In this document: in pieces, positions 4,472 to 40,957 of the stretch
How the letters are laid out: each line of letters opens with the position of its first letter
Position numbering within the stretch: the first letter of the stretch is position 1
Notes under the pieces: generated by a model
Seen by the model: the letters and a program-made list of their open reading frames with translations, nothing else
Database searches by the model: none
What the model was told of the DNA's origin: nothing
Program-made: the position numbers and the translations under genes
Sequence record: PX880100.1
Source of the DNA: a phage
DNA: 64,000 bases
Strand: one strand, 5' to 3'

Positions 4472-5991
4472 ATATCGCTGGCCTGTTCACCTGTTGAATT
4501 TTCAGTTTTGTCTTTCTTAGCACGTTTAGGTTGAGCCGGCTTATCCTTCTCAATAGGGATAACGAACTCAGCTTCCATTTGAGATATATCTTCCATTGCT
4601 AGGTTGGTAGTGTTATCCATTCGCAGAGTTTCCCAGTTCATTTTAGGCATAAACTTCACGCTATCAGAAGAACGAGTCTTAACGAAGTCAAACATAATAG
4701 CACCTTGACCATTATCAGCTTTTGCAGCGTTAAGATTAGCAGCCATGTCGGCGGAATCAAGAATCCCCTTTGACATACGTGTTCTACCATCTTGATCAAT
4801 CTGGTAAGGAGCTACACCAGCCACGTTATGTTTCTGGCAGATAGATTTGAAAGACGAGCTAACAACCATCTGTTCTTTCCAGTCATACATATCAATGGTT
4901 TTAGAGTCTGGAAGTCGGGTTTGGTTAATATAGTCCAGTAAAGCTACTGTAACTTTATCTCCATATCTAGCAACTAATTTATTTAATTCTACGTCAACTG
5001 TTGTAATAGATAGCTCAGGGTCATAAACAATAATCATAGGAGTATGTAGCTCATACCCTTCTATTAGCTTACTTTCCATATCGTAGAAATCACTCATCTT
5101 AGCCATTGTGTACTGTTTAACGAAGTTATCGAAAAGCTCTTCACCCCCATTAAACATTCTAGCTCTAGTTCTGGCTAATCTCAATAGAGCTGCACCTTCT
5201 AGAGTATTATTACGCATTGCTAATGCTGATACACCAGCTAACATGGCTAGATTACGTCTAAATACTTCATGTTCTTTCATCTCAATTGAGAAGTATGGAG
5301 CAATATCTCCATTCAAATATTGCTGAACCTGTATGTTTGAACAGATAATGGATTTACCAGTACCACGCCAACCACCAAGCAGTAACGTTTCTGTGCGAGC
5401 TAAACCAATTTGAGCGTCGAACTCATTACAAATACCAAGAGCGATTAAGTTCAGTTTGGTATCTTCTTCTCTCTGGAAAATACGCATGTTATCTGCGTTG
5501 AATACTTTTCCAGTATTCGTTACTTTCTCTTCTAATTTTAAGTGAAGGGAGGCAACTCGGTTGAGAATTTCTCCCTGATCCAGCATTGTTAAATCTTGAA
5601 GCACGTCTGTTTCTAGAAGCTTCAGGAATAAATCTTGTGTATATTCGGCTTCTAGGACTTCAAGTGCCTGTTCCATGCTCACTTCTGGAATTTGAGTGTT
5701 AGCTAAGACGACTAGAGCTTGAGAAAGGCGGGCGTTCCTATTAGCTTCAAGCATAAGTGCGTCAATGGACGGCATTGTGTTATATTTTTTATAATAATTC
5801 TGGACGGCTTGGTAAATTGAGGAGAAAGCGTCATTAAAATGATCTTTATGCAGTTTTGAGAATGTTTCCAATGCTATTTGCTTCTGTTCGGAAGCTAGAA
5901 GCATCTTCAACACTACAGCTTGCACGTTAAACAAGGTCATTCTCCTTTGCACGCTTTCGTGCCTTCTAAATGCAAAAAGGGGAAGGAGCAT
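4468..5991 (-). CDS. replicative helicase-like RecA-fold ATPase
   Basis: 507 aa; Walker A LLGGWRGTGKS; GGAGG-type RBS before ATG at 5991 (alternative start at 5940); operon with primase and polymerase. Confidence 0.7.
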   Translation of the reverse strand: MLLPLFAFRRHESVQRRMTLFNVQAVVLKMLLASEQKQIALETFSKLHKDHFNDAFSSIYQAVQNYYKKYNTMPSIDALMLEANRNARLSQALVVLANTQIPEVSMEQALEVLEAEYTQDLFLKLLETDVLQDLTMLDQGEILNRVASLHLKLEEKVTNTGKVFNADNMRIFQREEDTKLNLIALGICNEFDAQIGLARTETLLLGGWRGTGKSIICSNIQVQQYLNGDIAPYFSIEMKEHEVFRRNLAMLAGVSALAMRNNTLEGAALLRLARTRARMFNGGEELFDNFVKQYTMAKMSDFYDMESKLIEGYELHTPMIIVYDPELSITTVDVELNKLVARYGDKVTVALLDYINQTRLPDSKTIDMYDWKEQMVVSSSFKSICQKHNVAGVAPYQIDQDGRTRMSKGILDSADMAANLNAAKADNGQGAIMFDFVKTRSSDSVKFMPKMNWETLRMDNTTNLAMEDISQMEAEFVIPIEKDKPAQPKRAKKDKTENSTGEQASDI

Positions 5992-6022
5992 AGCCCCCTC
6001 CCCTTAGGTTTAATTTACCAGA

Positions 6023-6790
6023 TTATTCAGCAGCCGCAGCTTTTGCATCCAGTTTAGCACGCTTAGCGGCACCATCATAGTCCTTAGCAACCAGACCGCG
6101 ACGAGACAGCATAGATTTAACACCGCGCTCAGACTTACCAGTTTTCTCAGCGATCTCAGCAACAGTCATGTTAACCAGATCCAGACCTTCTAACAGATCT
6201 TCACGAGTTTTAGCACTTGAAGTTTCCTGTACCGGCATAGCAGCGATACGACCTTCACGAAGTAGGCTCAGAGCTTTACCACGGATCTGCTTGATATTAC
6301 GACCGAAGTGAGCAGCGATAGCTTCAATAGTAGCACCAGCAACAACCTGATTAACAAAATCAGTTTCTTCATCCGGAGTGAAGGAACGAACAGCAGCAGC
6401 TTTTTCAGTTGGCTTAACAGAAGCGGTCATTTCCAGACTCAGGATCTTACCCTGTACCTGTTTAGCACCGAACTGACCACCAGCTACAGCAGCAGCGATT
6501 TCAGCATAGGTATACTGACCAGCATGAGCGTTCAGGAAATCAACCAGTTCAGCTTCCTGCTCAGGAGTCCACGGGGATTTCTGCACTTCGTTAGCTTTTT
6601 GTACTTCAAAACCTTCTTTACGCAGTTTAGAGCCAACAGAGCGAGCAGTAACATCTTTGCCAGTTTCAGCAGCCAGTTCAGCAGCAATAGCAGCTACTTG
6701 TTCTTGAGAGATTACAGAAACACCCAGAGCAGTGGCTTTTGCTTTCAGAGACTCGGTTACACCTTCTACGTTCCAGTTCAGTTTAGACAT
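6023..6790 (-). CDS. putative DNA-binding protein (T5 D5-like by size and position)
   Basis: 255 aa Ala/Glu/Lys-rich protein between helicase and ligase genes; assignment by synteny, not by motif. Confidence 0.4.
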   Translation of the reverse strand: MSKLNWNVEGVTESLKAKATALGVSVISQEQVAAIAAELAAETGKDVTARSVGSKLRKEGFEVQKANEVQKSPWTPEQEAELVDFLNAHAGQYTYAEIAAAVAGGQFGAKQVQGKILSLEMTASVKPTEKAAAVRSFTPDEETDFVNQVVAGATIEAIAAHFGRNIKQIRGKALSLLREGRIAAMPVQETSSAKTREDLLEGLDLVNMTVAEIAEKTGKSERGVKSMLSRRGLVAKDYDGAAKRAKLDAKAAAAE

Positions 6791-7556
6791 TATTATTTTT
6801 CTCCAATAGTTCTTTAATCGACAGGATTTCTATCCCATTCGTTTCGGCTTTCTTATAAGATGAGGAAGAACGTTTTGATTCATCCTCACAGATTAGGTAT
6901 TTGACGTCTTTGGTAACGGATTTCTTAACCGTATATCCTAGACCTTCTAAATAGTTTGTTGCATCCGTTCGATTTGCAAAATCTTGCAAAGATCCGGTAA
7001 TACATACCGCGATTCCATTTGGCTGGGCAACTAAATCATCAGTAACGACGGTTTTAGCTTTAGCACCAGTTGAGAATTTCCACGGTAGTTCGATAACATC
7101 CTTGCCTTGTGGGGAATTTAGCCAGGCTTTATAATTTTCTCCAGCCTTGCCGTCAGCCTTCACATCGTGGAAGCTAGTGCAATTTTGGGATAATTTCTTT
7201 GCTGCAACCTCTCCAATTAGAGGGATTCCTAAAGAACCGAGAACTGAACCAAAGTCAATGTCTCCGCGAACTTTAGTATTTAATTCGCTAATTAACTTAG
7301 CGGCAACCTTGCTACCCACGGCTCTAACCAAATCTTCTTCGGTTAGGTAAAATAGTTCTGAAATCTTCGTCAGCTCCAGCTTCTCAATAGTTTTCGGGCC
7401 AAAGCCCTTTAACTTCATTTTTGTACAGAAGTTCTCAATTAACTTACTTGATTGCGCTGAACAGTTGGACTTATTACGACAGAATAATTGTCCGTTGACA
7501 AGATCTAGCTTAGAACCACAAGAGGGACATTGTGTTGGAATTTCGATTTTCATCAA
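6783..7556 (-). CDS. NAD-dependent DNA ligase, C-terminal subunit (Zn-finger/HhH/BRCT part)
   Basis: 257 aa; CPSCGSKLDLVNGQLFCRNKSNC zinc finger, helix-hairpin-helix-like GFGPKTIEKL, BRCT-like tail; separate gene from the adenylation part. Confidence 0.8.
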   Translation of the reverse strand: MMKIEIPTQCPSCGSKLDLVNGQLFCRNKSNCSAQSSKLIENFCTKMKLKGFGPKTIEKLELTKISELFYLTEEDLVRAVGSKVAAKLISELNTKVRGDIDFGSVLGSLGIPLIGEVAAKKLSQNCTSFHDVKADGKAGENYKAWLNSPQGKDVIELPWKFSTGAKAKTVVTDDLVAQPNGIAVCITGSLQDFANRTDATNYLEGLGYTVKKSVTKDVKYLICEDESKRSSSSYKKAETNGIEILSIKELLEKNNNV

Positions 7557-7583
7557 ATTTCTTCCTTATCAATTTATATAGAT

Positions 7584-7612
7584 ATTATAGCAAGTATTTA
7601 AGCATTTAGCAA
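7584..7612 (-). promoter_or_regulatory. early promoter (TTGCTA -35, 17-bp spacer, TATAAT -10) for ligase C-terminal subunit gene
   Basis: Reverse strand reads TTGCTAAATGCTTAAATACTTGCTATAATATCTATATAAATTGATAAGGAAG upstream of ATG 7556; coordinates approximate. Confidence 0.6.
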
Positions 7613-7755
7613 CTACAATTTTAACTAACTTTGCTTACCCTCGCCATAACTTTCTATCCCTCAACTGAATGATAATAGTATATACCTAAGCGGCGAAAAT
7701 GTCAATAACCACTTTATAATTCCGATATGGTAGATGGGTAGCAAAGGGTTATGTA

Positions 7756-8730
7756 TTAATCGTATACTCGTTCTACTATGCATGGGATTACACCACCAGC
7801 ACGAATCACTCGAATCTGGCAACCGATCTCTAGATCAAGAGAGTTAATATAATCAACGTTATTAAGAGTCGCTTTAACAATTGTAGCATCATCAATAATT
7901 ACTGGTTCAAAATAACCTACTGGAGTTACTTTACCAGAAGCCCCTACCTGCCATTCAACTTTAGTAAGAGTTGTAATCTCGCCTTCTTCATCCTCTTTAA
8001 TGGCGAATGCTCCACGAGGGAATTTATTAGTCCAGCCTTCACGGAAGAATTTGTTGTTGTCATTAATACGAACAACTTTACCGTCCGTCGGAATCCATTT
8101 AAAAAAGGAACGCACATTAACAACTGTTAAGAAGTTCTCATTCTCTAGCCAAAGCATATCTTTTAAATATGCTTCTGTAATACCTACAGATTCAGCAGAA
8201 CACTGGATACCGTATGCAACGAAGATTAAGCCACCTTCCCCGATACGTTGTACGAAATCATCGCTATCTTTGAGGTTAATAGCACCAGAGGCAAAGTTAC
8301 GTTTATTTTCTACTTCTTTTGTAATTAGAACTTCACCAGTGATTTGAGTAGGTACTTTTTGGGAAATCTTTTTAGGGATGTTCAGCAATCTTACGTTGCT
8401 TGTGACATCATTTCCCAGAATACCGTTACCACGAGTTAATGCTTGAACAAATTCACCGTTAATATATAATAGAGAAATTGCACAACCATCTAACTTATCT
8501 GTTTCTACCTGACCTAAAGGATTAAATGGTGGTTTATCCCCACGATTATAATAAACTTTCTGTAAAGAATACATACGGTACAGATGTGGAATATCACCCT
8601 TAGGCCCGATCTCTTCTTCTAATGGGAAGCGTTTTACCAGGCAATCATACTCCTCATCAGAGATTAAAGACATGCCTTGATAATATGCTTCTTGACAACG
8701 CTTAATAAAGCCTTTTACATTATTCATCAT
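7756..8730 (-). CDS. NAD-dependent DNA ligase, N-terminal adenylation subunit
   Basis: 324 aa; KxDG adenylation motif (ETDKLDGCAISLLY); lies ~200 bp upstream of the C-terminal ligase gene. Confidence 0.82.
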   Translation of the reverse strand: MMNNVKGFIKRCQEAYYQGMSLISDEEYDCLVKRFPLEEEIGPKGDIPHLYRMYSLQKVYYNRGDKPPFNPLGQVETDKLDGCAISLLYINGEFVQALTRGNGILGNDVTSNVRLLNIPKKISQKVPTQITGEVLITKEVENKRNFASGAINLKDSDDFVQRIGEGGLIFVAYGIQCSAESVGITEAYLKDMLWLENENFLTVVNVRSFFKWIPTDGKVVRINDNNKFFREGWTNKFPRGAFAIKEDEEGEITTLTKVEWQVGASGKVTPVGYFEPVIIDDATIVKATLNNVDYINSLDLEIGCQIRVIRAGGVIPCIVERVYD

Positions 8731-8935
8731 CGGCGATTTCCATCTTGAGTTCTTTATTATATTGTGTAACCATATCCATCAAATCAGCAGATTCTTTCAG
8801 AAACGAATCTTTGTACGCCTTTTGATTTACTGTGCCTATGCTATCTTGATAATTAATACGTGCTGTGGAAAGTAGATTAAGTTTTGCTTGAATCTTGGGA
8901 AGTGTTACTGTCATAGCCATGATTGATCCTCTCAT
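8720..8935 (-). CDS. hypothetical protein (71 aa)
   Basis: Track ORF; promoter immediately upstream; overlaps ligase gene start by 11 nt. Confidence 0.5.
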   Translation of the reverse strand: MRGSIMAMTVTLPKIQAKLNLLSTARINYQDSIGTVNQKAYKDSFLKESADLMDMVTQYNKELKMEIADDE

Positions 8936-8949
8936 TAATTTATATAAAT

Positions 8950-8978
8950 ATTATATAACAAAACTGAGTTGAAAGCAA
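8950..8978 (-). promoter_or_regulatory. PN25-type early promoter
   Basis: Reverse strand: TTGCTT -35, 17-bp spacer, TATAAT -10, then ATTTATATAAATTAATGAGAGG; approximate coordinates. Confidence 0.6.
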
Positions 8979-33838: not shown

Positions 33839-33913
33839 CGGGGTGTAGTCTAAGGGAGAGGCAGGAGTCTTCTAAATTCCTTTATGCAGGTTCGAATCCT
33901 GTCACCTCGGCCA
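33839..33913 (+). tRNA. tRNA-Arg (anticodon UCU)
   Basis: Acceptor CGGGGTG/CACCTCG, D-arm GTCT..AGGC, anticodon arm GGAGT-CTTCTAA-ATTCC, T-arm GCAGG-TTCGAAT-CCTGT, encoded CCA. Confidence 0.7.
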
Positions 33914-33947
33914 ATTTTATTAACTGTAACTAAAACAAAGGAAATAT

Positions 33948-34895
33948 ATGTTTAATACTAAAAATATGAAAGAACTGACTTCTGAGCAGAAAGTAATTCG
34001 TACTATTAAACGTTGGGGGATTGGTGCTGTAGTTGGTTTAGCAGGTTTAGTTCTAGCTCTTAACTCCTATACCGTTGTTCAAGACGGTACTGTTAAGACC
34101 CAGACTTTCTTGGGTAAAGTTGATCCTAATCCAGTATTACCTGGTTTCCATGTTGTAAATCCTTTTGCTTCTTTTGATACTTTTAGTACTAAAGATATTG
34201 CTCTAAAATTAGATAAACTTCAGGTTCCTAGTCAGGATAAGTTTAAATCCACTGTTGACCTGACTGTTATGTTGCAGTTTGATGGTTCTAAAGCACCGAT
34301 TAACCGTATTAATGCAGGTAATCAGGATCAAGCGTTAGACAAATATGTAACTGAAAAATTACTGTCTACTATTCGTGAGTTTGGTAAGTCTGTACCTAAA
34401 GCACAAGATTTATTTGATGCTAAAATTCAGGCTCAATTGCAAACTGCAATTCAACAGGAAGTTGAAGAGTATGCACGCCCATATGGTTACACAGTTAAGC
34501 AGGTGTTCCTTCAGGATATTACTTTGCCACCGGTAATCATGGAACAGGTACAGAATACCAAAGTTCGTGAAGAACAGGTTAATGCTGCTAAAGCTGAATT
34601 AGCTCGTGTTGAACAGGAAGCACAGCAAAAAGTTAAACAAGCAGAAGCAGATCGTGAAGCTCGCAACAACCAAGCTATTGCTAATGAACGTGACGCAGAT
34701 GCTAAACTGTACGCAGCTAAGAAAGAAGCTGAAGCTAACGCCGCATTGCAACGTACCATTACTCCTGAGATGATTCGCTGGAAGCAACTGGAAGTTGAAA
34801 TGATCCGTGCTCAGAAGTATCAAGGTGGTGTACCACAGACGGTAGTTGGTACTGGTTATGATGGCCAAATGATCATGGATATGCGTAATAAATAA
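33948..34895 (+). CDS. SPFH/band-7 (prohibitin/HflC-like) membrane protein
   Basis: 315 aa; N-terminal TM helix (WGIGAVVGLAGLVLALN), central SPFH-like region, C-terminal coiled coil rich in A/E/Q/K/R. Confidence 0.6.
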   Translation: MFNTKNMKELTSEQKVIRTIKRWGIGAVVGLAGLVLALNSYTVVQDGTVKTQTFLGKVDPNPVLPGFHVVNPFASFDTFSTKDIALKLDKLQVPSQDKFKSTVDLTVMLQFDGSKAPINRINAGNQDQALDKYVTEKLLSTIREFGKSVPKAQDLFDAKIQAQLQTAIQQEVEEYARPYGYTVKQVFLQDITLPPVIMEQVQNTKVREEQVNAAKAELARVEQEAQQKVKQAEADREARNNQAIANERDADAKLYAAKKEAEANAALQRTITPEMIRWKQLEVEMIRAQKYQGGVPQTVVGTGYDGQMIMDMRNK

Positions 34896-34919
34896 TACCC
34901 GCATGTAACATCTGAAGTA

Positions 34920-34954
34920 AGCCCTGCGTTTCCTGGAGAGCGCAGGGCTTTTCT
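34920..34954 (+). terminator. rho-independent terminator
   Basis: AGCCCTGCG...CGCAGGGCT hairpin followed by TTTCT; approximate. Confidence 0.6.
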
Positions 34955-34991
34955 ATATAATGTAATTATAAAACTAACTAGGAGATTAAAC

Positions 34992-35510
34992 ATGGGTGTT
35001 GATGAATTAACACAGCATCTTCTATCTAGAGGATTTGATGCAGATAAATATCATTGCTGGTTAAGTCCGGAAGGATGGCTAACAGTCCCGTTGTATGATT
35101 TCTCTGGGATGTTGAGGGGCTATCAAACTTATAATCCTTCTGCTCCAAAAGGTCATGGTAAGTATCCCTTTGAAGCTAAATATTTTACCTATTCTACTAC
35201 CCAGTGTGTATGGGGATTAGAAACTCTCAATGGAGATGAAAAAGTAGTATTGATCGCTGAATCTGTATTTAAGGCAGTTGCGTTACATAACGCTGGTTAT
35301 CCAGCCCTAGCAATGTTGGGTTCTTCTCCAGGAAAAGCGTTATTAAAGCAACTGAAATTATTACCTTTTAAATTGGTAGCTGTCGGGGATAACGATCCTG
35401 CGGGTGAAAAATTTGCTAGAAAATTAAACGGCTTTGTTTCTCCTGTAGATGTGGATGAGATGTCTACCGAAAACTTGAAAAATTTTCTTGCTATGAAGCT
35501 AAATTTCTAA
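34992..35510 (+). CDS. hypothetical protein (172 aa)
   Basis: Track ORF with GGAGA RBS. Confidence 0.5.
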   Translation: MGVDELTQHLLSRGFDADKYHCWLSPEGWLTVPLYDFSGMLRGYQTYNPSAPKGHGKYPFEAKYFTYSTTQCVWGLETLNGDEKVVLIAESVFKAVALHNAGYPALAMLGSSPGKALLKQLKLLPFKLVAVGDNDPAGEKFARKLNGFVSPVDVDEMSTENLKNFLAMKLNF

Positions 35511-35531
35511 TATAATATATCTTATAAATTC

Positions 35532-35620
35532 GGAAGAATAGCATAACGGTATTGCAGCAGATTGCTAATCTGTCGGTTTGAAATATAGCCTTGTGGGTTC
35601 GATTCCCACTTCTTCCGCCA
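35532..35620 (+). tRNA. tRNA-Ser (anticodon GCU), class II
   Basis: Acceptor GGAAGAA/TTCTTCC, 3-bp D-stem, anticodon arm GCAGA-TTGCTAA-TCTGT, long variable arm, T-arm GTGGG-TTCGATT-CCCAC, encoded CCA. Confidence 0.7.
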
Positions 35621-35626
35621 AATTCT

Positions 35627-35704
35627 GGTTCTCAAGCTCATATGGTATGAGCACCCAGCTCATAACTGGAAGGTACGTAGGTTCGAATCCTCGGGGAGCC
35701 ACCA
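35627..35704 (+). tRNA. tRNA with CAU anticodon (Met or Ile2 type)
   Basis: Acceptor GGTTCTC/GGGAGCC with G-U pairs, D-arm GCTC..GAGC, anticodon loop CTCATAA, encoded CCA; T-stem has two mismatches, so fold is uncertain. Confidence 0.5.
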
Positions 35705-35922
35705 ACTTAATTAGGGGATTACAAGTGGAATTATACATAGTTTATGTTGTGTTTATTCAAGATAGAGAATACCCTGATGAATATAAAAAAGGATATAGGT
35801 TAGCCAGAGCTACCTCTGAAGTCCAAGCTATGGATAAAGTGGCAGATTATATGATTACGGTAGAAAACGTACACTATATCGACTACCTTGAGGCCTCAAA
35901 AGTAATTGACTAAGGAGACTAT

Positions 35923-36108
35923 ATGTCCAAGTTTCAAGAACTCAAGCAAGAGCTAGAAGAATGTGCCTGCCCTGAGTGTAGGGGAATTGGTGAAAGTTCT
36001 GATGCAGAAGCAGGAGATACTTTTTGCAATATCTGGGTTTGCCCAAATTGCAATGGTACAGGTATTAATCCTAACTGTGGTATTTCTCTAGATATTGAAA
36101 GAGGGTAA
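35923..36108 (+). CDS. small zinc-ribbon-like protein (61 aa)
   Basis: Track ORF; CxxC...CxxC cysteine pairs (CACPECRG, CPNCNG); AAGGAG RBS. Confidence 0.5.
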   Translation: MSKFQELKQELEECACPECRGIGESSDAEAGDTFCNIWVCPNCNGTGINPNCGISLDIERG

Positions 36109-36209
36109 TATCTGTGAAACTAAAAGATTATTATATTGGTTGGTTTGTGGGACTAGTAGTAGGATTTTCACTAGGCTATAATATGTATCAACTAATAAAC
36201 TGATTACAC

Positions 36210-36286
36210 GGGGGTGTAATCGAATTGGCATAGGTACTGGACTTAAAATTCAGGTTTTGTGGGTTCGAATCCCACCACCCCTACCA
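36210..36286 (+). tRNA. tRNA with UAA anticodon (Leu-type anticodon, short variable arm)
   Basis: Acceptor GGGGGTG/CACCCCT, anticodon arm CTGGA-CTTAAAA-TTCAG, T-arm GTGGG-TTCGAAT-CCCAC, encoded CCA; D-arm not cleanly resolved. Confidence 0.5.
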
Positions 36287-36301
36287 AATTAAGGAAATAA
36301 G

Positions 36302-36469
36302 ATGTATAGACCTCCACCTCCGCCAACACGTCGTTCTAGAGAAGTTATCCTCATGGAATTGACTAAAAACTTCAAGGCAACTCTTGAAGATAGAGATTTA
36401 GGCACGGATGAAGACATTGATTTTATTTGTAGACTATTAAAGATGAAACTGGAGAAACAACATGGCTAA
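36302..36469 (+). CDS. hypothetical small protein (55 aa, below track cutoff)
   Basis: ATG at 36302 with AAGGAAATAAG RBS right after the tRNA; proline-rich N-terminus; overlaps the next ORF start. Confidence 0.5.
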   Translation: MYRPPPPPTRRSREVILMELTKNFKATLEDRDLGTDEDIDFICRLLKMKLEKQHG

Positions 36470-36668
36470 TCCTGAAATTACCGCACAACGTTTCATGCTT
36501 AAAGGCATGATTGCTGAAGCAGGTATGACTCAAGAGGTTGCAGACTTTCATAAGCAAATTCTTGATATTATAACTCTAGCTAAAGAGACTGGAGAAAAAG
36601 AGCACGCAGCAGCAATTATGGCTATATCTCTTATTAGTCTAGACTTGGCTGAAGAATCTGGAGTTTAG
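36462..36668 (+). CDS. hypothetical protein (68 aa)
   Basis: Track ORF. Confidence 0.5.
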   Translation: MANPEITAQRFMLKGMIAEAGMTQEVADFHKQILDIITLAKETGEKEHAAAIMAISLISLDLAEESGV

Positions 36669-36698
36669 CTCCTCCAAATAGAATTTTTAAAAATGTAC

Positions 36699-36728
36699 TT
36701 GCCTTTTGCTTTAAATTTCTGATATAAT
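36699..36728 (+). promoter_or_regulatory. early promoter
   Basis: TTGCCT, 18-bp spacer, TATAAT, then AGTTATATAAATTGATGAAGGAG; approximate. Confidence 0.55.
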
Positions 36729-36758
36729 AGTTATATAAATTGATGAAGGAGTTAACTA

Positions 36759-37034
36759 ATGCAAAATCGTGTTATAGCAACTGGTATTGAAAGTGCAATC
36801 TGTAAATCCTGGGAAGGCTGGGAAGGTGAGATTGAATGGCTTTATTTCTATGATGTAGAACTTCTGCCGGAAGTTAAAGCTAAATGTGTTGAAGCTGGAA
36901 TGGCTCCAGATGCAAAAGCTGATATTGATATTTCAATGTCTGAACTTAAAGGCCGTGTAATTACTGTTAGTGATGAGGGTGAAGAAGTTTTCGAACTTCC
37001 ATTCTCCTTAACTGTCACTCCTAAGTTCGACTAA
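36759..37034 (+). CDS. hypothetical protein (91 aa)
   Basis: Track ORF downstream of promoter. Confidence 0.5.
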   Translation: MQNRVIATGIESAICKSWEGWEGEIEWLYFYDVELLPEVKAKCVEAGMAPDAKADIDISMSELKGRVITVSDEGEEVFELPFSLTVTPKFD

Positions 37035-37070
37035 CTAATACAGCACTGAGCAAGTTCTTTAAAATTTGAC

Positions 37071-37099
37071 TTGCTCAGTGCCTTAAAACTTGGTATAAT
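37071..37099 (+). promoter_or_regulatory. early promoter feeding a tRNA block
   Basis: TTGCTC, 17-bp spacer, TATAAT; followed by a 14-bp inverted-repeat leader hairpin and tRNAs; approximate. Confidence 0.5.
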
Positions 37100-37161
37100 A
37101 GTTATCTAATTTGGAAACATATTTAAAAGTGTTTAAACTAGTATTTGAATACTTTTAAATA

Positions 37162-37267
37162 TGTTGGATTAGTATCGTAGAGGTAGCGAAGCAGACTGTA
37201 AATCTGCCGACTCGGAAGGGTCTCGGGTGGTTCGACTCCATCATCCATCATCCATCATCCAACACCA
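37162..37267 (+). tRNA. tRNA-Tyr-like (anticodon GUA), class II, atypically long; boundaries uncertain
   Basis: Perfect anticodon arm GCAGA-CTGTAAA-TCTGC, D-stem TCG/CGA, T-arm GGTGG-TTCGACT-CCATC; 3' region carries ATCCATC-ATCCATC-ATCCAAC then ACCA; GTTGGAT pairs with the last copy. Confidence 0.5.
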
Positions 37268-37274
37268 AATTTAA

Positions 37275-37351
37275 GTCCTGTTAGACAAACTGGTAAAGTC
37301 ACTACCCTTTCAAGGTAGGATTTGCGGGTTCGATCCCCGCACAGGACGCCA
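37275..37351 (+). tRNA. tRNA-Glu (anticodon UUC)
   Basis: Acceptor GTCCTGT/ACAGGAC, anticodon arm CTACC-CTTTCAA-GGTAG, T-arm GCGGG-TTCGATC-CCCGC, encoded CCA. Confidence 0.8.
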
Positions 37352-37360
37352 ATTTCTGCA

Positions 37361-37436
37361 TTCCTAGAGTGTTACTGGACAGCATGTCGGTCTCCAAAAT
37401 CGTACGGTCTAGGTTCGAGTCCTAGTAGGTTTGCCA
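37361..37436 (+). tRNA. tRNA-Trp-like (anticodon CCA), acceptor pairing unresolved
   Basis: Anticodon arm TCGGT-CTCCAAA-ATCGT and T-arm CTAGG-TTCGAGT-CCTAG with encoded CCA; spacing to neighbouring tRNAs fits, but 5' acceptor strand could not be paired by eye. Confidence 0.4.
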
Positions 37437-37442
37437 AAATTT

Positions 37443-37517
37443 GCACCTTTAGCTGAGATGGATTAGCGCTTGCCTGAAGAGCTTGAGAGGTTCGTTCGAT
37501 ACGAACAGGGTGCACCA
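37443..37517 (+). tRNA. tRNA-Phe-like (anticodon GAA)
   Basis: Acceptor GCACCTT/AGGGTGC, D-arm GCTG..TAGC, T-arm GTTCG-TTCGATA-CGAAC, encoded CCA; anticodon loop CTGAAGA but stem has two U-U mismatches. Confidence 0.55.
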
Positions 37518-37519
37518 AA

Positions 37520-37807
37520 TTGAGGGGGCTGCTGATGCATCCTGAAAACTTCTTTATTTACTGCGCTGATAAGTCGCTGAAACGTAGAATTAACAAAGTC
37601 TATCATTATCGTGCTAGTCAACAGCCTTATGTATATGCTTTTGACGGTGATCACATTCCATTAGAACAATTATCTTGTGATTACATGATATTGAAGAACT
37701 TTGACGAGACAAAGATCTCAAGCGTTCATAATCGACAGAATCCCTTAACGTGGAAATATAAGAAGAAAAAGAAAGGCATCAAATTCTTAAAAAATGTAGT
37801 TGCTTAG
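37520..37807 (+). CDS. hypothetical protein (95 aa)
   Basis: Track ORF starting 3 nt after the tRNA; TTG start. Confidence 0.45.
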   Translation: MRGLLMHPENFFIYCADKSLKRRINKVYHYRASQQPYVYAFDGDHIPLEQLSCDYMILKNFDETKISSVHNRQNPLTWKYKKKKKGIKFLKNVVA

Positions 37808-37828
37808 TTTCCAAAAGTTCTGTATAAT
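37800..37828 (+). promoter_or_regulatory. PN25-type early promoter
   Basis: TTGCTT, 17-bp spacer, TATAAT, then AATTACATAAATTGAACTGGAG; approximate. Confidence 0.55.
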
Positions 37829-37857
37829 AATTACATAAATTGAACTGGAGAAGCAAC

Positions 37858-38082
37858 ATGACAGAACAAGAATTGAATGAACGTAAGCTGGTAATGCTCC
37901 GCTTACTAAACATTTTCTCTGGTATGGATGGGGGTATTGACTTTGTTCATCTACGTTCTTTTGTAGAAGAAGCAGAAGGTGAATCTATCACTAAAATCCT
38001 TAAACATATGGGTTTACTATTAGATGCTGCTGGTGTAGCAACGGAATATAACCTCGAAGATCTACCGGAGCGTATTAAATGA
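37858..38082 (+). CDS. hypothetical protein (75 aa)
   Basis: ATG at 37858 with GGAG RBS; track lists an extended frame from 37840. Confidence 0.5.
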   Translation: MTEQELNERKLVMLRLLNIFSGMDGGIDFVHLRSFVEEAEGESITKILKHMGLLLDAAGVATEYNLEDLPERIK

Positions 38083-38267
38083 AGAAGCCAAAAGCTAAAT
38101 TAGTTAAGTTCGACTGTTGTGACACAGAAATCTTATTCACTAAGTTTGGTGAATTTAAGATGTGTGAATGTGGAACATGTGGTTATGATCATGGTGATGG
38201 ATATTATTGCAGGACTCTTGGACCAGCAAATCTAATCCACTTTTCATGGCCGGAAGATAAAGAATAA
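38079..38267 (+). CDS. small zinc-ribbon-like protein (62 aa)
   Basis: Track ORF; cysteine clusters FDCCDTE and CECGTCGYDHGDGYYC; 4-nt overlap with upstream gene. Confidence 0.5.
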   Translation: MKKPKAKLVKFDCCDTEILFTKFGEFKMCECGTCGYDHGDGYYCRTLGPANLIHFSWPEDKE

Positions 38268-38269
38268 TT

Positions 38270-38344
38270 GCATCCTTGTCCGAGTGGCTTAGGTGACGGT
38301 CTGCAAAATCGTCTAGGTTGGTTCAATTCCAGCAGGGTGCTCCA
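38270..38344 (+). tRNA. tRNA-Cys (anticodon GCA)
   Basis: Acceptor GCATCCT/AGGGTGC, anticodon arm ACGGT-CTGCAAA-ATCGT, T-arm GTTGG-TTCAATT-CCAGC, encoded CCA. Confidence 0.7.
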
Positions 38345-38350
38345 AATTCA

Positions 38351-38433
38351 GGGTCGTTAGCCAAGCGGTTTGGCGGTGGACTGTTAATCCATGTCGAAAG
38401 ACAACGTAGGTTCGAATCCTACACGGCCCGCCA
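38351..38433 (+). tRNA. tRNA-Asn (anticodon GUU) with an enlarged (~13-nt) variable region
   Basis: Acceptor GGGTCGT/ACGGCCC, D-arm GCCA..TGGC, anticodon arm GTGGA-CTGTTAA-TCCAT, T-arm GTAGG-TTCGAAT-CCTAC, encoded CCA. Confidence 0.65.
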
Positions 38434-38535
38434 AATTCTGTGTAGAGTTAAGTAAACCGGTAGCCAACCAGCTATCATTGCTGACATCGAATTCAGCCAC
38501 AGATACCATTTTCATTAATAACTGAGGAAACAAGC

Positions 38536-38721
38536 ATGTCCAAGAATGTAATTGCGCAGCTAGAAGTTCATCGTGATAGCACTATCAACAATATTGAAGT
38601 TGAGAAGAAATACATCGAAGAACTTAAACATGATATACTAGTAAGTCTCAACCGTCTTAATGTACGAAAAGAGTTTCTTAAAGAACTTAATGCAGCTATT
38701 GAAAAACTCAAAGCTGAGTAA
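38536..38721 (+). CDS. hypothetical protein (61 aa)
   Basis: Track ORF with GAGGAAAC RBS. Confidence 0.5.
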   Translation: MSKNVIAQLEVHRDSTINNIEVEKKYIEELKHDILVSLNRLNVRKEFLKELNAAIEKLKAE

Positions 38722-38730
38722 ATGAATTAT

Positions 38731-38807
38731 GCGACCGGGGCTGGCTTGGTAATGGTACTCCCCTGTCACGGGAGGGAATGTGGGTTCAAATCCCATCGGT
38801 CGCGCCA
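38731..38807 (+). tRNA. tRNA-Asp (anticodon GUC)
   Basis: Acceptor GCGACCG/CGGTCGC, anticodon arm CTCCC-CTGTCAC-GGGAG, T-arm GTGGG-TTCAAAT-CCCAT, encoded CCA. Confidence 0.8.
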
Positions 38808-38824
38808 AATAAGGTAGGTTAGCT

Positions 38825-38983
38825 ATGGAACGTAGAGAGTTTACTCCAGAAGAGATAGAGCAGATAAAAGAATCTGCTACGAAAAATGCTAGAATATCTC
38901 TGTCACTAGAAGGTATCATTATTAGTGATGTAAACTTTGAAAAAATCAAAGCCATAGCTGATGAACTGGAAAAAGTAATTTAA
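38825..38983 (+). CDS. hypothetical small protein (52 aa, below track cutoff)
   Basis: ATG at 38825 with AAGGTAGG RBS between two tRNAs; acidic helical peptide. Confidence 0.45.
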   Translation: MERREFTPEEIEQIKESATKNARISLSLEGIIISDVNFEKIKAIADELEKVI

Positions 38984-38984
38984 T

Positions 38985-39060
38985 ACATCCATAGCTCAAT
39001 GGTTAGAGCTACCGCCTCTTAAGCGGAGGGTTCTAGGTTCAAGTCCTAGTGGGTGTACCA
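38985..39060 (+). tRNA. tRNA-Lys (anticodon CUU)
   Basis: Acceptor ACATCCA/TGGGTGT, D-arm GCTC..GAGC, anticodon arm CCGC-CTCTTAA-GCGG, T-arm CTAGG-TTCAAGT-CCTAG, encoded CCA. Confidence 0.65.
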
Positions 39061-39086
39061 AACTAAACTAGCACGAGAAATATACT

Positions 39087-39434
39087 ATGCGTAATGCTAA
39101 AGAAGAGTTGTTACTTGCCTTAAAAAATACTAATTCTGAAGTTAAGTGTATTAAAATAGAATTCGGGTATTATGGGGACAAAAAAGTTTGGGTATTACCT
39201 CTGGGGTATACAGAAGAAGATATTGGGGATTTTCTTAATAACCTAGACTTTGAGTATGATTCTGGTTATGGTGGACAACTACTTTATGGTAATGTATGGT
39301 TTGCCGATGGAACCTGGCTAGAACGTGGGGAATATGATGGAGCTGAGTGGTGGGAATACAAGGCTACTCCAGCAATTCCAGAGGAATGCCGAACAATTAA
39401 TGGTGAAGTAGATAATACTTTAAGGTTAAACTAA
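39087..39434 (+). CDS. hypothetical protein (115 aa)
   Basis: Track ORF. Confidence 0.5.
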   Translation: MRNAKEELLLALKNTNSEVKCIKIEFGYYGDKKVWVLPLGYTEEDIGDFLNNLDFEYDSGYGGQLLYGNVWFADGTWLERGEYDGAEWWEYKATPAIPEECRTINGEVDNTLRLN

Positions 39435-39438
39435 TAAA

Positions 39439-39538
39439 ATTTCAGTGCAGAACACGGAGCTAGCAATTCGGAAGTGCTGACTCATGATAAGCTGCCTATG
39501 TACTTGCAAAGCGGTCGTGTCCAAGACTCGGACTCTTG
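39439..39538 (+). ncRNA. structured ORF-free element closed by a ~10-bp long-range stem
   Basis: TTCAGTGCAG at the 5' end pairs with CTTGCACTGAA at the 3' end, enclosing internal hairpins (GTCC-AAGACTC-GGAC); no ORF. Confidence 0.35.
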
Positions 39539-39556
39539 CACTGAAAACAATCAAAC

Positions 39557-39684
39557 ATTCTAGCGTGGTTGATGGGGAAACCAGCTTGGCTAGGGCAGAA
39601 GCTCGTTCGATTCGAGTGAAAGAATGGTTCTCGTAAGTCCGCACAAGTGATAATAGGTTCGAGTCCTGTCTAGAATGACACTAT
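39557..39684 (+). ncRNA. tRNA-like element of atypical length (~128 nt)
   Basis: ATTCTAG...CTAGAAT acceptor-like pairing, D-arm-like GGTT-GATGGGGA-AACC, two T-arm-like motifs; too long for a canonical tRNA. Confidence 0.3.
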
Positions 39685-39826
39685 AAAGTTTACTTATTAT
39701 GTAGGTTCCGATAGATCGGCGGGTCTATTCTGGCATTTAAGAGAGGTCTCGCAAACTTCTTTGTCAGCCGTGGGGTTGGTAGCCTCCAGGTGGCCTACAC
39801 AATAAGTAAATTTATTAAAAATTCAT

Positions 39827-39855
39827 TTGCTATTTCTCTTAATTATCTGTATAAT
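39827..39855 (+). promoter_or_regulatory. PN25-type early promoter
   Basis: TTGCTA, 17-bp spacer, TATAAT, then ATATTTTATAAAGTGAAGAGAAGG; approximate. Confidence 0.55.
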
Positions 39856-39887
39856 ATATTTTATAAAGTGAAGAGAAGGAAAGCAAA

Positions 39888-40046
39888 ATGAAACACAAGA
39901 TAGCTCAAGTTTTTATGGCATTATGGTGTATGCCAATAGCTATAACAGCATTTAATCTAGATACTTTTACTATAGAAGAAAAATGTATCGGATTAGTTAG
40001 TGGCTTTAGTATGCTTGGCTTATCTTTGTTGTGGTTGAAGAAATAA
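39888..40046 (+). CDS. hypothetical small membrane peptide (52 aa, below track cutoff)
   Basis: ATG at 39888 with GAAGGAAAG RBS after the promoter; hydrophobic sequence; stops 4 nt before tRNA-Pro. Confidence 0.5.
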   Translation: MKHKIAQVFMALWCMPIAITAFNLDTFTIEEKCIGLVSGFSMLGLSLLWLKK

Positions 40047-40050
40047 TATT

Positions 40051-40128
40051 CTCCGTGTAGCTCAGTTTGGCCAGAGCGTTTCGTTTGGGGCGATAGGGTC
40101 GGGGGTTCAAATCCTCCCACGGAGACCA
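40051..40128 (+). tRNA. tRNA-Pro (anticodon UGG)
   Basis: Acceptor CTCCGTG/CACGGAG, D-arm GCTC..GAGC, anticodon loop TTTGGGG (stem with one U-U), T-arm GGGGG-TTCAAAT-CCTCC, encoded CCA. Confidence 0.7.
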
Positions 40129-40134
40129 AACAAT

Positions 40135-40212
40135 TGCGGGTTAGATCTCTGGTAGAGATCGCTAGTCTCATAAGCTAGAAAGAGGTAGGTTCGATTCCTG
40201 CACCCGCTTCCA
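40135..40212 (+). tRNA. tRNA with CAU anticodon (Met-type; T-T mismatch at pair 1-72)
   Basis: Acceptor TGCGGGT/ACCCGCT, D-arm GATC..GATC, anticodon arm CTAGT-CTCATAA-GCTAG, T-arm GTAGG-TTCGATT-CCTGC, encoded CCA. Confidence 0.6.
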
Positions 40213-40232
40213 TTTTAATAGAGGATTTCGAA

Positions 40233-40400
40233 ATGAAAGTATTTCGATTAGTAGTAAGTGACAAACGCTTAGGTAAGAATACATCAAAATCCTTACTTGC
40301 TCATTATGGTAGAAATTGGGATGAAGTAATGGCAGAGTTTAGTACTAATCACTCTTACTTGAAAGTTCACTCTATTAAAGAAGTATACAATGGTTACTAA
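40233..40400 (+). CDS. hypothetical small protein (55 aa, below track cutoff)
   Basis: ATG at 40233 with GAGGA RBS between tRNAs. Confidence 0.45.
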   Translation: MKVFRLVVSDKRLGKNTSKSLLAHYGRNWDEVMAEFSTNHSYLKVHSIKEVYNGY

Positions 40401-40401
40401 T

Positions 40402-40480
40402 AGATCGCTAGCTCAATAGGTTTAGTAGCATCCGACTTTTAATCGGAAGGTTCTGGGTTCAAGTCCCAGGCGATCTACCA
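40402..40480 (+). tRNA. tRNA-Lys (anticodon UUU)
   Basis: Acceptor AGATCGC/GCGATCT, anticodon arm TCCGA-CTTTTAA-TCGGA, T-arm CTGGG-TTCAAGT-CCCAG, encoded CCA. Confidence 0.8.
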
Positions 40481-40484
40481 ATTT

Positions 40485-40558
40485 GCTCGGTTAGTTTAAT
40501 GGGAGAACCCCGTCTTTACATGGCGGTTGAGATAGTTCGATTCTATCACCGGGTACCA
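40485..40558 (+). tRNA. tRNA-Val (anticodon UAC)
   Basis: Acceptor GCTCGGT/ACCGGGT, anticodon arm CCGTC-TTTACAT-GGCGG, T-arm GATAG-TTCGATT-CTATC, encoded CCA. Confidence 0.8.
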
Positions 40559-40577
40559 ATTAACTCAAAATAAGGAA

Positions 40578-40937
40578 TTGCAAATGCAATTATCAAGCAA
40601 GATTCAAGGTTATTTCGGTCATGTGACAATGGAGTTCGCTATCTCTAAAGGTTGGGACTTCGAACAAGATTTAGCTGAGTTCTACAAAGATATTGATCTG
40701 AACGTACCGTACATGGGACTTTCTACTGGTCAGGAGATCACAGAAGCCGATGTATTCAAGGCAAGTCAAGGTGAGGTAACACCTAGTTTTGCCGAGTTCT
40801 GGTTAGGCATTACGTTAAAAGAAGATGCACCAGATAGTGGTGTACTAATGTCTAGTATGCACTCTGGAAGTTCCGATTACCTTTTCATTAGCGATGTTAA
40901 GGAAATACAAGAAGTCTGCAAAAATGTACTTGCTTGA
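40578..40937 (+). CDS. hypothetical protein (119 aa)
   Basis: Track ORF (TTG start; in-frame ATG at 40584) with AAGGAATTG RBS. Confidence 0.5.
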   Translation: MQMQLSSKIQGYFGHVTMEFAISKGWDFEQDLAEFYKDIDLNVPYMGLSTGQEITEADVFKASQGEVTPSFAEFWLGITLKEDAPDSGVLMSSMHSGSSDYLFISDVKEIQEVCKNVLA

Positions 40938-40957
40938 TGCTTAATTTCTTGTTATAA
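40929..40957 (+). promoter_or_regulatory. PN25-type early promoter feeding an ORF-free leader and tRNAs
   Basis: TTGCTT, 17-bp spacer, TATAAT, then ATTTATATAAATTGATGAGGAG; approximate. Confidence 0.55.

What the first reader, a model, noticed from the sequence alone, without database searches (positions are those of the whole stretch)
6783..8730. NAD-dependent DNA ligase split into two genes with a promoter in the gap
The adenylation domain with its KxDG motif (7756..8730) and the Zn-finger/HhH/BRCT part (6783..7556) are separate ORFs about 200 bp apart. The gap contains a full early promoter and RBS for the downstream half, so the two halves can be transcribed separately. This implies a two-subunit ligase or a decayed intervening element.
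Basis: partly seen in the sequence, partly recalled or inferred. Interest (0 to 1): 0.4.

Follow-up and report, generated by a model that had tools for sequence, protein, structure and literature searches.

The report
Known two-gene DNA ligase of T5-like phage
This is the already described two-gene NAD-dependent DNA ligase (ligA plus ligB) of phage T5 and its relatives, with the known T5 promoters between the two genes; it is real and apparently functional, but not new.

Summary
The window is a T5-like phage (96-97% nucleotide identity to ECOP18, chee24 and DT57C).

- **The two genes.** ligA (7756..8730, minus strand) encodes domain Ia, the KLDG adenylation domain and the OB fold. ligB (6783..7553) encodes the four-cysteine zinc finger, HhH and BRCT. 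About 200 bp separate them, with stops in every frame.
- **The gap.** It holds two sigma-70 promoters, not one. They are identical in sequence to the stretches annotated P-K28b and P-K28a in T5, and a Shine-Dalgarno site follows.
- **Already known.** T5 and hundreds of relatives are annotated ligA/ligB. A 2006 paper calls it the "split NAD+-dependent DNA ligase" of T5. PDB 9HU3/9I5I hold both chains of the Providencia phage PR1 homologue.
- **Conservation.** The split lies at the same OB|zinc-finger junction in every member of the family I examined, including 21 distinct environmental contigs. A consensus promoter precedes ligB in nearly all (weak in IME260 and two Vibrio phages). Both genes are under purifying selection.
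- **No decayed element here.** The window's gap holds no intron or endonuclease remnant. In relatives the same slot carries cargo, including a GIY-YIG homing endonuclease in two phages.

Verdict: a two-subunit ligase, already known, low interest.

The parts
7756..8730 (-). ligA: catalytic subunit with a shortened domain Ia, the nucleotidyltransferase domain (KLDG) and the OB fold. It ends where E. coli LigA reaches about residue 400.
   Evidence: ORF. Pfam adenylation and OB domains. 99% amino-acid identity to T5 ligA T5.116. Alignment to E. coli LigA keeps K115, D117, G118, R136, E173, R200, K314, Y35 and D36. E=2.6e-103 to PDB 9hu3_A.
7554..7755 (-). Intergenic gap of 202 bp between the ligA stop and the ligB ATG. 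It is AT-rich, has stops in all frames, and holds no ORF longer than 8 codons.
   Evidence: No Rfam match. Nearly identical to the T5 and DT57C gaps, and the promoter core is conserved in Klebsiella phage IME260.
7677..7705 (-). Distal promoter TTGACA-17-TATACT, equivalent to T5 P-K28b.
   Evidence: Scan, 11 of 12 matches. Lies in the stretch identical to the annotated T5 P-K28b. A promoter sits at the same distance from ligB in Proteus, Providencia and Vibrio phages.
7584..7612 (-). Proximal promoter TTGCTA-17-TGcTATAAT, equivalent to T5 P-K28a.
   Evidence: Scan, 10 of 12 matches plus an extended TG. Annotated T5 P-K28a. A consensus TTGAC(A/T)-17-TATAAT lies at this position in 21 of 21 distinct marine T5-like contigs.
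7561..7567 (-). Shine-Dalgarno sequence AAGGAAG, 7 nt upstream of the ligB ATG.
   Evidence: Read from the sequence. Conserved in T5, DT57C and IME260.
6783..7553 (-). ligB: DNA-binding subunit with a four-cysteine zinc finger, HhH repeats and BRCT. It starts where E. coli LigA is at about residue 401.
   Evidence: ORF. Pfam BRCT and HhH. 96% identity to T5 ligB T5.117. Alignment to E. coli LigA keeps C408, C411, C432, G455, G489 and G521; the fourth cysteine (E. coli C426) is present but offset by one column, and the BRCT region aligns. E=4.2e-82 to PDB 9hu3_B.
6023..6790 (-). D5 DNA-binding protein gene. Its ATG overlaps the ligB stop by 8 nt (ATGTCTAA), so ligB and D5 form one unit downstream of the gap promoters.
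   Evidence: ligB is followed by a D5 homologue in the relatives where that flank was readable: the annotated isolates and the environmental contigs long enough to reach it.
5977..6005 (-). Terminator-like hairpin (13-pair stem followed by a T run) after D5. It probably ends the ligB-D5 unit.
8950..8978 (-). Promoter cassette TTGCTT-17-TATAAT upstream of a small ORF and ligA. Its -10 and downstream sequence (TATAATATTTATATAAATT.AT.AG) resemble the proximal ligB promoter.
   Evidence: Identical to the T5 stretch annotated as a promoter upstream of ligA. It falls below the scan threshold because its -35 hexamer matches only 3 of 6.
8720..8935 (-). Small ORF between the ligA promoter and ligA. 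It is 64-71 aa depending on the start chosen, its stop overlaps the ligA start, and it is absent from T5 itself.
   Evidence: No Pfam match.

Best explanation
This is the T5-type two-subunit NAD+-dependent DNA ligase.

**LigA (324 aa).** It carries a shortened domain Ia, the adenylation domain with the active-site lysine in KLDG, and the OB fold. It reacts with NAD+ to form ligase-AMP and carries out the chemistry.

**LigB (256 aa).** It carries the zinc finger, HhH and BRCT modules. In single-chain LigA these modules bind the nicked duplex and close the protein clamp around it.

**Assembly.** The break falls in the short flexible linker between the OB fold and the zinc finger. Only about six linker residues are missing, and no extra dimerisation domain has been added. 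The two proteins must therefore assemble non-covalently into the equivalent of one LigA chain, probably stabilised on DNA. The assembled enzyme would seal nicks and Okazaki fragments during T5 replication.

**The gap.** It is a regulatory module, not debris. Two tandem sigma-70 promoters (T5 P-K28b and P-K28a) plus a ribosome-binding site start a ligB-D5 transcription unit. ligA has its own promoter cassette of the same type. No terminator follows ligA, so ligB can also be reached by read-through.

**Shown here:** the anatomy, the conserved residues, the conservation, the purifying selection, and identity to the annotated T5 features. Subunit association is suggested rather than shown: the two chains are deposited together in two PDB entries for a 58-65% identical homologue, and I could not inspect the interface.

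**Inferred:** that this phage's two proteins associate and ligate, and that the promoters give ligB a higher or separately timed expression.
For: **Identity with T5**
- The region is 96-97% identical to many T5-like phages annotated ligA/ligB, and 431 records cover at least 80% of it.
- T5 NC_005859 annotates ligA, P-K28b, P-K28a, ligB and D5 in this order, and the gap aligns almost base for base.

**Domain content**
- Pfam domains split cleanly between the two ORFs.
- The alignment to E. coli LigA shows A ending, and B starting, either side of a linker of about six residues. Catalytic, zinc-finger and HhH residues are invariant across the seven phage sequences aligned (window, T5 and five other genera).

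**Structure of a homologue**
- PDB 9hu3/9i5i contain both chains ('DNA ligase (NAD(+))' and 'DNA ligase subunit B'), with E=2.6e-103 and 4.2e-82 to the window proteins.
- They are the Providencia phage PR1 proteins.

**Selection and spread**
- dN/dS against T5 and DT57C is 0.03 for ligA and 0.23-0.26 for ligB.
- The split is kept in Tequintavirus, Sugarlandvirus, Novosibvirus, Priunavirus, Vipunavirus, Thalassavirus and an unclassified Vibrio phage. It is also kept in 21 of 21 distinct environmental contigs with T5 synteny.
- More than 100 clusters (at 50% identity) of stand-alone LigB-like proteins of about 250 aa exist.

**Biochemical precedent**
- A LigA-type ligase truncated after the OB fold adenylates itself but cannot ligate. 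[quoted passage not shown]
Against: - No ligation or pull-down data for the T5 proteins themselves were found in the searchable literature.
- No paper describing 9HU3/9I5I was found, so I could not read how the subunits contact each other.
- The proteins depart from E. coli LigA in three ways: domain Ia is shortened, motif IV Lys290 is Arg, and the fourth HhH is shortened by 12 residues in this lineage. Their effect on activity is untested.
- Promoter use in this phage is inferred from identity to annotated T5 promoters. It was not measured.
Confidence: 0.9

Rival explanations
1. The split is the lasting scar of an ancient mobile-element insertion (a free-standing homing endonuclease or similar cassette) into the OB|zinc-finger linker. 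The element has since been lost from this genome, and the slot is still revisited by such elements in relatives. This concerns origin and is compatible with the two-subunit function.
For: - A 219-aa GIY-YIG homing endonuclease sits exactly between the ligA stop and the promoter module in Klebsiella phage AmPh_EK80. A 58% identical homologue sits there in Serratia phage Kamaji.
- Compared with its sister phage IME260, the AmPh_EK80 insertion is a precise cassette of about 650 bp, and the last 12 ligA codons are recoded.
- Marine relatives carry a T5orf172/GIY-YIG-superfamily ORF in the same slot.
- Other cargo (NADAR, DprA-like) occupies the slot in Proteus and Vibrio phages.
Against: - The window's gap has no remnant: no ORF, no tblastn similarity to the endonuclease, and no Rfam intron match.
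- The endonuclease is present in only 2 of roughly 930 phage records with LigB. That fits a recent visit to a pre-existing intergenic site, not the cause of the split.
- The shortest gaps (62-83 bp) hold only a promoter.
- The origin event is too old to reconstruct from these data.
Confidence: 0.2
2. The gap in this genome is itself the decayed remnant of an intron, intein or endonuclease gene.
For: An 8-codon mini-ORF with its own SD-like GAGGGA follows the distal promoter (7647..7621). It could be read as the stump of a lost gene.
Against: - The roughly 200 bp are taken up by two promoters at fixed distances from ligB, an arrangement shared with Proteus, Providencia and Vibrio phages.
- The mini-ORF's ATG is not kept in Klebsiella phage IME260.
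- There is no Rfam hit, and the halves are in different frames with stops in all frames.
- In relatives, cargo always lies upstream of this promoter module, not inside it.
Confidence: 0.03
3. Sequencing error or pseudogene: a single-chain ligase broken by a frameshift or nonsense mutation, with one or both halves inactive.
For: None found.
Against: - The same arrangement occurs in more than 430 independent phage records and in environmental contigs.
- A 199-bp non-coding gap with stops in all frames cannot be repaired by one frameshift.
- Both halves are under strong purifying selection.
- Both chains of a homologue have been expressed and their structure solved.
Confidence: 0.01
4. The halves act largely on their own. 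LigB, made from two strong promoters together with D5, would be a DNA-binding or BRCT scaffold protein with a role beyond ligation. LigA would work alone or with another partner.
For: - ligB is translationally coupled to D5 and has its own tandem promoters.
- ligB-D5 adjacency holds in the relatives where that flank was readable.
- ligB evolves faster than ligA, with dN/dS 0.25 against 0.03.
Against: - ligA and ligB co-occur as neighbours wherever both flanks were readable.
- A LigA-type ligase lacking the zinc finger, HhH and BRCT adenylates itself but does not ligate (PMC1684257).
- The PDB entries hold both chains together.
- A natural single-chain fusion exists in a T5-syntenic contig.
Confidence: 0.08

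Closest known systems
Phage T5 ligA (T5.116) / ligB (T5.117) with promoters P-K28b and P-K28a (NC_005859; Wang et al. 2005, as cited in PMC1684257)
   Same: Same genes, same order, and same gap with the same two promoters. Amino-acid identity is 99% for LigA and 96% for LigB.
   Different: Only strain-level differences. The window has an extra small ORF between the ligA promoter and ligA that T5 lacks, and LigB has a 3-residue indel in the HhH-BRCT linker.
Providencia phage vB_PreS_PR1 LigA/LigB, PDB 9HU3 and 9I5I
   Same: Same family (Demerecviridae), same split point, and both chains solved together.
   Different: LigB is 58% identical and LigA about 60-65%. PR1 has an annotated terminator after ligA, where the window has none. 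No paper was found, so activity and interface details are unknown to me.
Single-chain bacterial LigA (E. coli LigA, PDB 2OWO)
   Same: Same domain order Ia-NTase-OB-Zn-HhH-BRCT, and the same catalytic and zinc-finger residues.
   Different: - E. coli LigA is one 671-aa chain, against 324 + 256 aa here.
- The phage version has a shorter domain Ia and deletions in the NTase domain.
- Lys290 is Arg, and the fourth HhH is shortened.
- Identity is about 30%.
Genes split by a free-standing homing endonuclease, such as Aeromonas phage Aeh1 nrdA split by mobE and T4 topoisomerase genes 39/60 (from my own knowledge, not checked here)
   Same: An enzyme cut at a domain boundary into two adjacent genes whose products reassemble. 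In two relatives a GIY-YIG endonuclease gene sits in the gap.
   Different: In this window and in most relatives no endonuclease is present. The conserved occupant of the gap is a promoter module, and the split is fixed across a whole virus family.
Compact single-chain relatives (555-578 aa) from metagenomes, such as P0105
   Same: Same compact clade, 35-42% identical to LigA and 30-38% to LigB. P0105 lies in T5-type synteny (PC4-like, ligase, D5-like, DnaB, primase).
   Different: The halves are covalently joined by a linker of about 7 residues. P0105 is a singleton whose nearest relatives (51-59% identity) are all split A subunits, so it is probably a secondary fusion or an assembly artefact.

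Membership tests
NAD+-dependent DNA ligase (LigA) family | Nucleotidyltransferase domain with the motif I lysine (KxDG) and motifs III and V | tested here: met
   KLDG is present. K115, D117, G118, R136, E173, R200 and K314 (E. coli numbering) are invariant in the 8-sequence alignment. Pfam PF01653 scores 83.5 bits against a cut-off of 27. Motif IV K290 is Arg.
NAD+-dependent DNA ligase (LigA) family | Domain Ia, which confers NAD+ specificity (Y22, H23, D32, Y35 and D36 in E. coli) | tested here: inconclusive
   A shortened N-terminal segment keeps E34, Y35 and D36, and an Asp (Asn in two relatives) at position 32. The Y22/H23 region aligns ambiguously (AYYQG). Cofactor use was not testable.
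NAD+-dependent DNA ligase (LigA) family | OB-fold domain following the NTase domain | tested here: met
   Pfam PF03120 scores 78.4 bits against a cut-off of 32.9, at residues 253-322 of LigA.
NAD+-dependent DNA ligase (LigA) family | Four-cysteine zinc finger, HhH domain and BRCT domain | tested here: met
   LigB starts MKIEIPTQCPSCGSKLDLVNGQLFCRNKSNC. C408, C411, C432, G455, G489 and G521 are invariant; the fourth cysteine (E. coli C426) is present in all but sits one column off in the alignment. BRCT scores 32.7 bits against a cut-off of 21.3. The fourth HhH is shortened by 12 residues.
NAD+-dependent DNA ligase (LigA) family | All domains on one polypeptide | tested here: not met
   There are two ORFs in different frames, 199-202 bp apart. 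This is the feature that defines the T5-type variant.
T5-type split ligase LigA/LigB (Demerecviridae) | Break between the OB fold and the zinc finger, with ligA immediately upstream of ligB | tested here: met
   A subunits end within about 3 residues of each other, and B subunits start 3-6 residues before the first Cys, in the window, T5 and five other genera.
T5-type split ligase LigA/LigB (Demerecviridae) | Replication-module synteny D2-D3-T5.115-ligA-ligB-D5-dnaB | tested here: met
   Window ORFs and the DT57C and T5 annotations agree. The same order is found in environmental contigs.
T5-type split ligase LigA/LigB (Demerecviridae) | Promoter module directly upstream of ligB (P-K28a/b in T5) | tested here: met
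T5-type split ligase LigA/LigB (Demerecviridae) | The two proteins form a complex with nick-sealing activity | not testable with these tools
   The only support is indirect. The PDB entries 9hu3/9i5i hold both chains of the PR1 homologue. A LigA-type ligase lacking the C-terminal half is inactive in ligation (PMC1684257).
Gene split by a resident homing endonuclease or intron | An endonuclease gene, intron or intein between or within the halves | tested here: not met
   The window gap has no ORF over 8 codons, no Rfam hit, and no similarity to the GIY-YIG endonuclease of AmPh_EK80. The feature is met in two relatives only.

The most novel reading that the evidence does not exclude
The split may be kept by selection, not by accident. 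The OB|zinc-finger linker hosts a promoter cassette conserved across the family, and this cassette starts a ligB-D5 unit. LigB would then be made at a different dose or time from LigA. That could tune ligase activity, for example around the nicks of T5 DNA, or give LigB a second role alongside D5. Immediately upstream, the same junction serves as a recurrent landing slot for mobile and accessory genes: a GIY-YIG endonuclease, NADAR, a DprA-like gene and a T5orf172-like gene. I found no paper describing either pattern, but my literature access is partial.
Probability: 0.2. Interest if true: 0.4.

Novelty: already known. Interest (0 to 1): 0.12.

Why it matters
For the scan, this finding can be closed. 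It is a correctly read, textbook-level peculiarity of T5-like phages, annotated in hundreds of genomes and backed by a solved structure of a homologue.

What remains is comparative. The split and a promoter in front of ligB were found across the virus family wherever I looked. The junction is also a cargo slot that sometimes holds a homing endonuclease. That makes the locus a reasonable natural system for asking why genes-in-pieces persist, but it does not change the understanding of the ligase.

Tried and rejected
- **RNA families.** An Rfam scan of the gap and its flanks at E<=1 found nothing.
- **Frameshift or read-through.** Rejected: stops in all three frames, and the genes are in different frames.
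- **Mini-ORF after the distal promoter.** Its ATG is not conserved in Klebsiella phage IME260, so I do not count it as a gene.
- **Literature.**
  - Searches for 9HU3/9I5I and for 'split', 'heterodimeric' or 'two-subunit' ligase returned nothing relevant.
  - A search for the Bujard promoter papers returned nothing.
  - The 'early' class of P-K28a/b therefore rests on the T5 record's annotation, the position in the early D-gene region (PMC3632103) and my own recollection.
- **Locus of the fused protein P0028.** Scans of viral and metagenome contigs found only split relatives at 43% identity or less. They did supply the 21 environmental split loci.
- **Cargo ORFs.** Those of Vibrio phage 234P1 (98 aa), Vibrio phage Gary (134 aa) and two small ORFs in L024/L035 matched no family.
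- **Modelling the complex.** Not attempted, because the structure tool takes one chain from the window only.
Full report
**What the window is.** The stretch 6600-8950 matches 474 phage records. 431 of them cover at least 80% of it in one place. The best are T5-like phages at 96-97% identity: ECOP18, chee24, DT57C and IrisVonRoten. [quoted passage not shown] The neighbours are the T5 replication genes D2, D3, T5.115, D5, dnaB (D6) and primase.

**Checking the observation.**
- ligA is 7756..8730 on the minus strand, 324 aa. It matches the Pfam NAD-ligase adenylation domain and OB domain, and it contains KLDG.
- ligB was given as 6783..7556 from a TTG. The ATG at 7553 is the likelier start. T5 is annotated from MKIEIP, the PDB homologue starts MKIQIP, and AAGGAAG lies 7 nt upstream.
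- LigB begins with CxxC...C-x5-C and has HhH and BRCT matches.
- The gap is 199-202 bp and 32% G+C. It has stops in all frames and the genes are in different frames, so no frameshift can restore one ORF.
- The gap has two promoter matches: TTGACA-17-TATACT (7705..7677) and TTGCTA-17-TATAAT with an extended TG (7612..7584). There is no terminator-like site after ligA.

**It is already known.**
- The T5 reference record annotates ligA (T5.116), 'promoter P-K 28b', 'promoter P-K 28a', ligB (T5.117) and D5 in this order. The window's gap aligns to that stretch almost base for base.
- A genome note on phage Stitch mentions the A and B subunits (PMC4319617).
- The PDB holds two entries, 9HU3 and 9I5I. 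Each contains a chain named 'DNA ligase (NAD(+))' (339 aa) and a chain named 'DNA ligase subunit B' (248 aa). Their E-values to the window's proteins are 2.6e-103 and 4.2e-82.
- These chains are the proteins of Providencia phage vB_PreS_PR1/PSTCR5, another member of Demerecviridae.
- I found no paper for these entries in the searchable library.

**How the two halves relate to single-chain LigA.** I aligned the window, T5 and five other phage genera with E. coli LigA.
- The A subunits cover E. coli residues 1 to about 400 and end just after the last OB strand (...IPCIVERVYD).
- The B subunits start at about residue 401, a few residues before the first zinc-finger cysteine.
- Only about six linker residues are missing, and nothing has been added at the new ends.
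- Invariant in subunit A: K115, D117, G118, R136, E173, R200 and K314, plus E34, Y35 and D36 of domain Ia.
- Invariant in subunit B: C408, C411 and C432, the HhH glycines G455, G489 and G521, and several BRCT positions. The fourth cysteine is present, offset by one alignment column.
- Departures from E. coli: a shortened domain Ia, deletions in the NTase domain, Arg in place of Lys290, and a fourth HhH shortened by 12 residues in the Tequintavirus, Sugarlandvirus and Novosibvirus proteins.

**Are both halves functional?**
- Against T5 and DT57C, dN/dS is 0.03 for ligA and 0.23-0.26 for ligB.
- The split occurs in Tequintavirus, Sugarlandvirus, Novosibvirus, Priunavirus, Vipunavirus, Thalassavirus and an unclassified Vibrio phage.
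- I fetched viral and metagenome contigs with a related query. 21 distinct loci carry T5-type synteny, and all 21 are split at the same junction.
- An exhaustive HMMER search with LigB found more than 100 clusters (at 50% identity) of stand-alone proteins of 240-260 aa. These rank above canonical single-chain LigA of about 650 aa.
- A LigA-type ligase cut after the OB fold adenylates itself normally but cannot ligate (PMC1684257). This is the expected behaviour of subunit A alone and explains why B is retained.

**The gap is a regulatory module.**
- In the enterobacterial phages examined and in Vibrio phage 234P1, two promoters sit at fixed distances from ligB, about 140 and 45 nt. Klebsiella phage IME260 and Vibrio phages VPT02 and Gary showed only the distal one at my threshold.
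- In the marine contigs a single consensus TTGAC(A/T)-17-TATAAT lies 41-47 nt upstream, even where the whole gap is only 62-83 bp.
- ligB overlaps the D5 start by 8 nt, and a strong hairpin follows D5. The promoters therefore head a ligB-D5 unit.
- ligA has its own promoter cassette at 8978..8950. Its -10 and downstream sequence closely resemble those of the proximal ligB promoter, and the stretch is identical to one annotated as a promoter in T5.
- Both halves are thus served by the same kind of T5 promoter. ligB can in addition be reached by read-through from ligA.
- That this gives LigB a different dose or timing is my inference. It was not measured.

**Is there a decayed intervening element?**
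- Not in this window. The gap has no ORF longer than 8 codons, no Rfam match, and no similarity to endonucleases.
- The mini-ORF after the distal promoter is not conserved in IME260.
- In relatives, however, the space between the ligA stop and the promoter module is a cargo slot:

| Relative | Cargo in the slot |
|---|---|
| Proteus phage Stubb | NADAR protein |
| Vibrio phages VPT02 and Gary | DprA-like protein (phrog_768) |
| Marine contigs L024, L035 | T5orf172/GIY-YIG-superfamily ORF; also a DUF6552 protein in L024 |
| Klebsiella phage AmPh_EK80, Serratia phage Kamaji | 219-aa GIY-YIG homing endonuclease |

- Against its sister phage IME260, the AmPh_EK80 endonuclease is a precise insertion of about 650 bp. 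The last 12 ligA codons are recoded, and the sequence is identical from the promoter module onward.
- Only 2 of roughly 930 phage records with LigB carry this endonuclease.
- I read this as a mobile gene visiting an existing intergenic site. It leaves open, but does not show, that a similar event created the split.

**Rare fused forms.**
- Ten of the best 150 HMMER representatives are single chains of 555-578 aa from the same compact clade.
- One of them, P0105, lies in a T5-syntenic contig.
- P0105 is a singleton, and its nearest relatives (51-59% identity) are all split A subunits of about 306-315 aa.
- It is probably a secondary fusion or an assembly artefact. It does show that the two halves can work as one chain.

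**Verdict.** The finding is real and correctly interpreted as a two-subunit ligase with its own promoter for the second half. It is the known ligA/ligB arrangement of T5 and its family, so novelty is 'already known' and interest is low. The comparative points may not have been described: the family-wide promoter in the split, and the cargo slot with an occasional homing endonuclease. They are modest.

Noticed in passing
L096:1256-1915 (Klebsiella phage AmPh_EK80); L097:1600-2214 (Serratia phage Kamaji): A GIY-YIG homing endonuclease gene sits exactly between ligA and the ligB promoter module in two of roughly 930 phage records. In AmPh_EK80 it is a precise insertion of about 650 bp relative to sister phage IME260, with the last 12 ligA codons recoded.
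   Followed up: yes
L004:3495-4112 (Proteus phage Stubb); L005:3673-4236 and L007:3867-4427 (Vibrio phages); L024:5224-5924 and L035:3640-4002 (marine contigs): The same slot carries other cargo. Proteus phage Stubb has a NADAR-domain protein. The Vibrio phages have a DprA-like protein (phrog_768). The marine contigs have a T5orf172/GIY-YIG-superfamily ORF, and L024 also has a DUF6552 membrane protein. Several small ORFs there match nothing.
   Followed up: partly
L095:5001-6674, with a promoter-like site at L095:5992-6020: P0105 is a singleton 557-aa single-chain version of the compact ligase in a T5-syntenic metagenome contig. Its nearest relatives are all split. A TTGACA-17-TGcCATAAT match lies inside its zinc-finger coding part, which may be chance.
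   Followed up: partly
window 7621..7647 (minus strand): An 8-codon mini-ORF (MARVSKVS) with an SD-like GAGGGA follows the distal promoter. Providencia PR1 also has a short ORF at this place, but Klebsiella IME260 lacks the ATG.
   Followed up: partly
window 8720..8978 (minus strand): Between the ligA promoter cassette (8978..8950) and ligA lies a small ORF of 64-71 aa with no family match. DT57C shares it; T5 lacks it, and there the promoter runs straight into ligA. This is an indel polymorphism at the other end of ligA.
   Followed up: partly
window 33839..43887 (plus strand): A cluster of 24 tRNA genes, as expected for a T5-like genome.
   Followed up: no
window 6023..6790 (minus strand): The D5 protein gives weak helix-turn-helix and sigma-70 region 4 matches (Sigma70_r4_2, 28.8 bits). 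Its gene is translationally coupled to ligB, and ligB-D5 adjacency is kept in the relatives where that flank could be read.
   Followed up: no
window 7756..8730 and 6783..7553 (protein level): E. coli LigA Lys290 (motif IV) is Arg in all seven phage A subunits aligned. The fourth HhH of LigB is 12 residues shorter in Tequintavirus, Sugarlandvirus and Novosibvirus than in the Vibrio phages.
   Followed up: no
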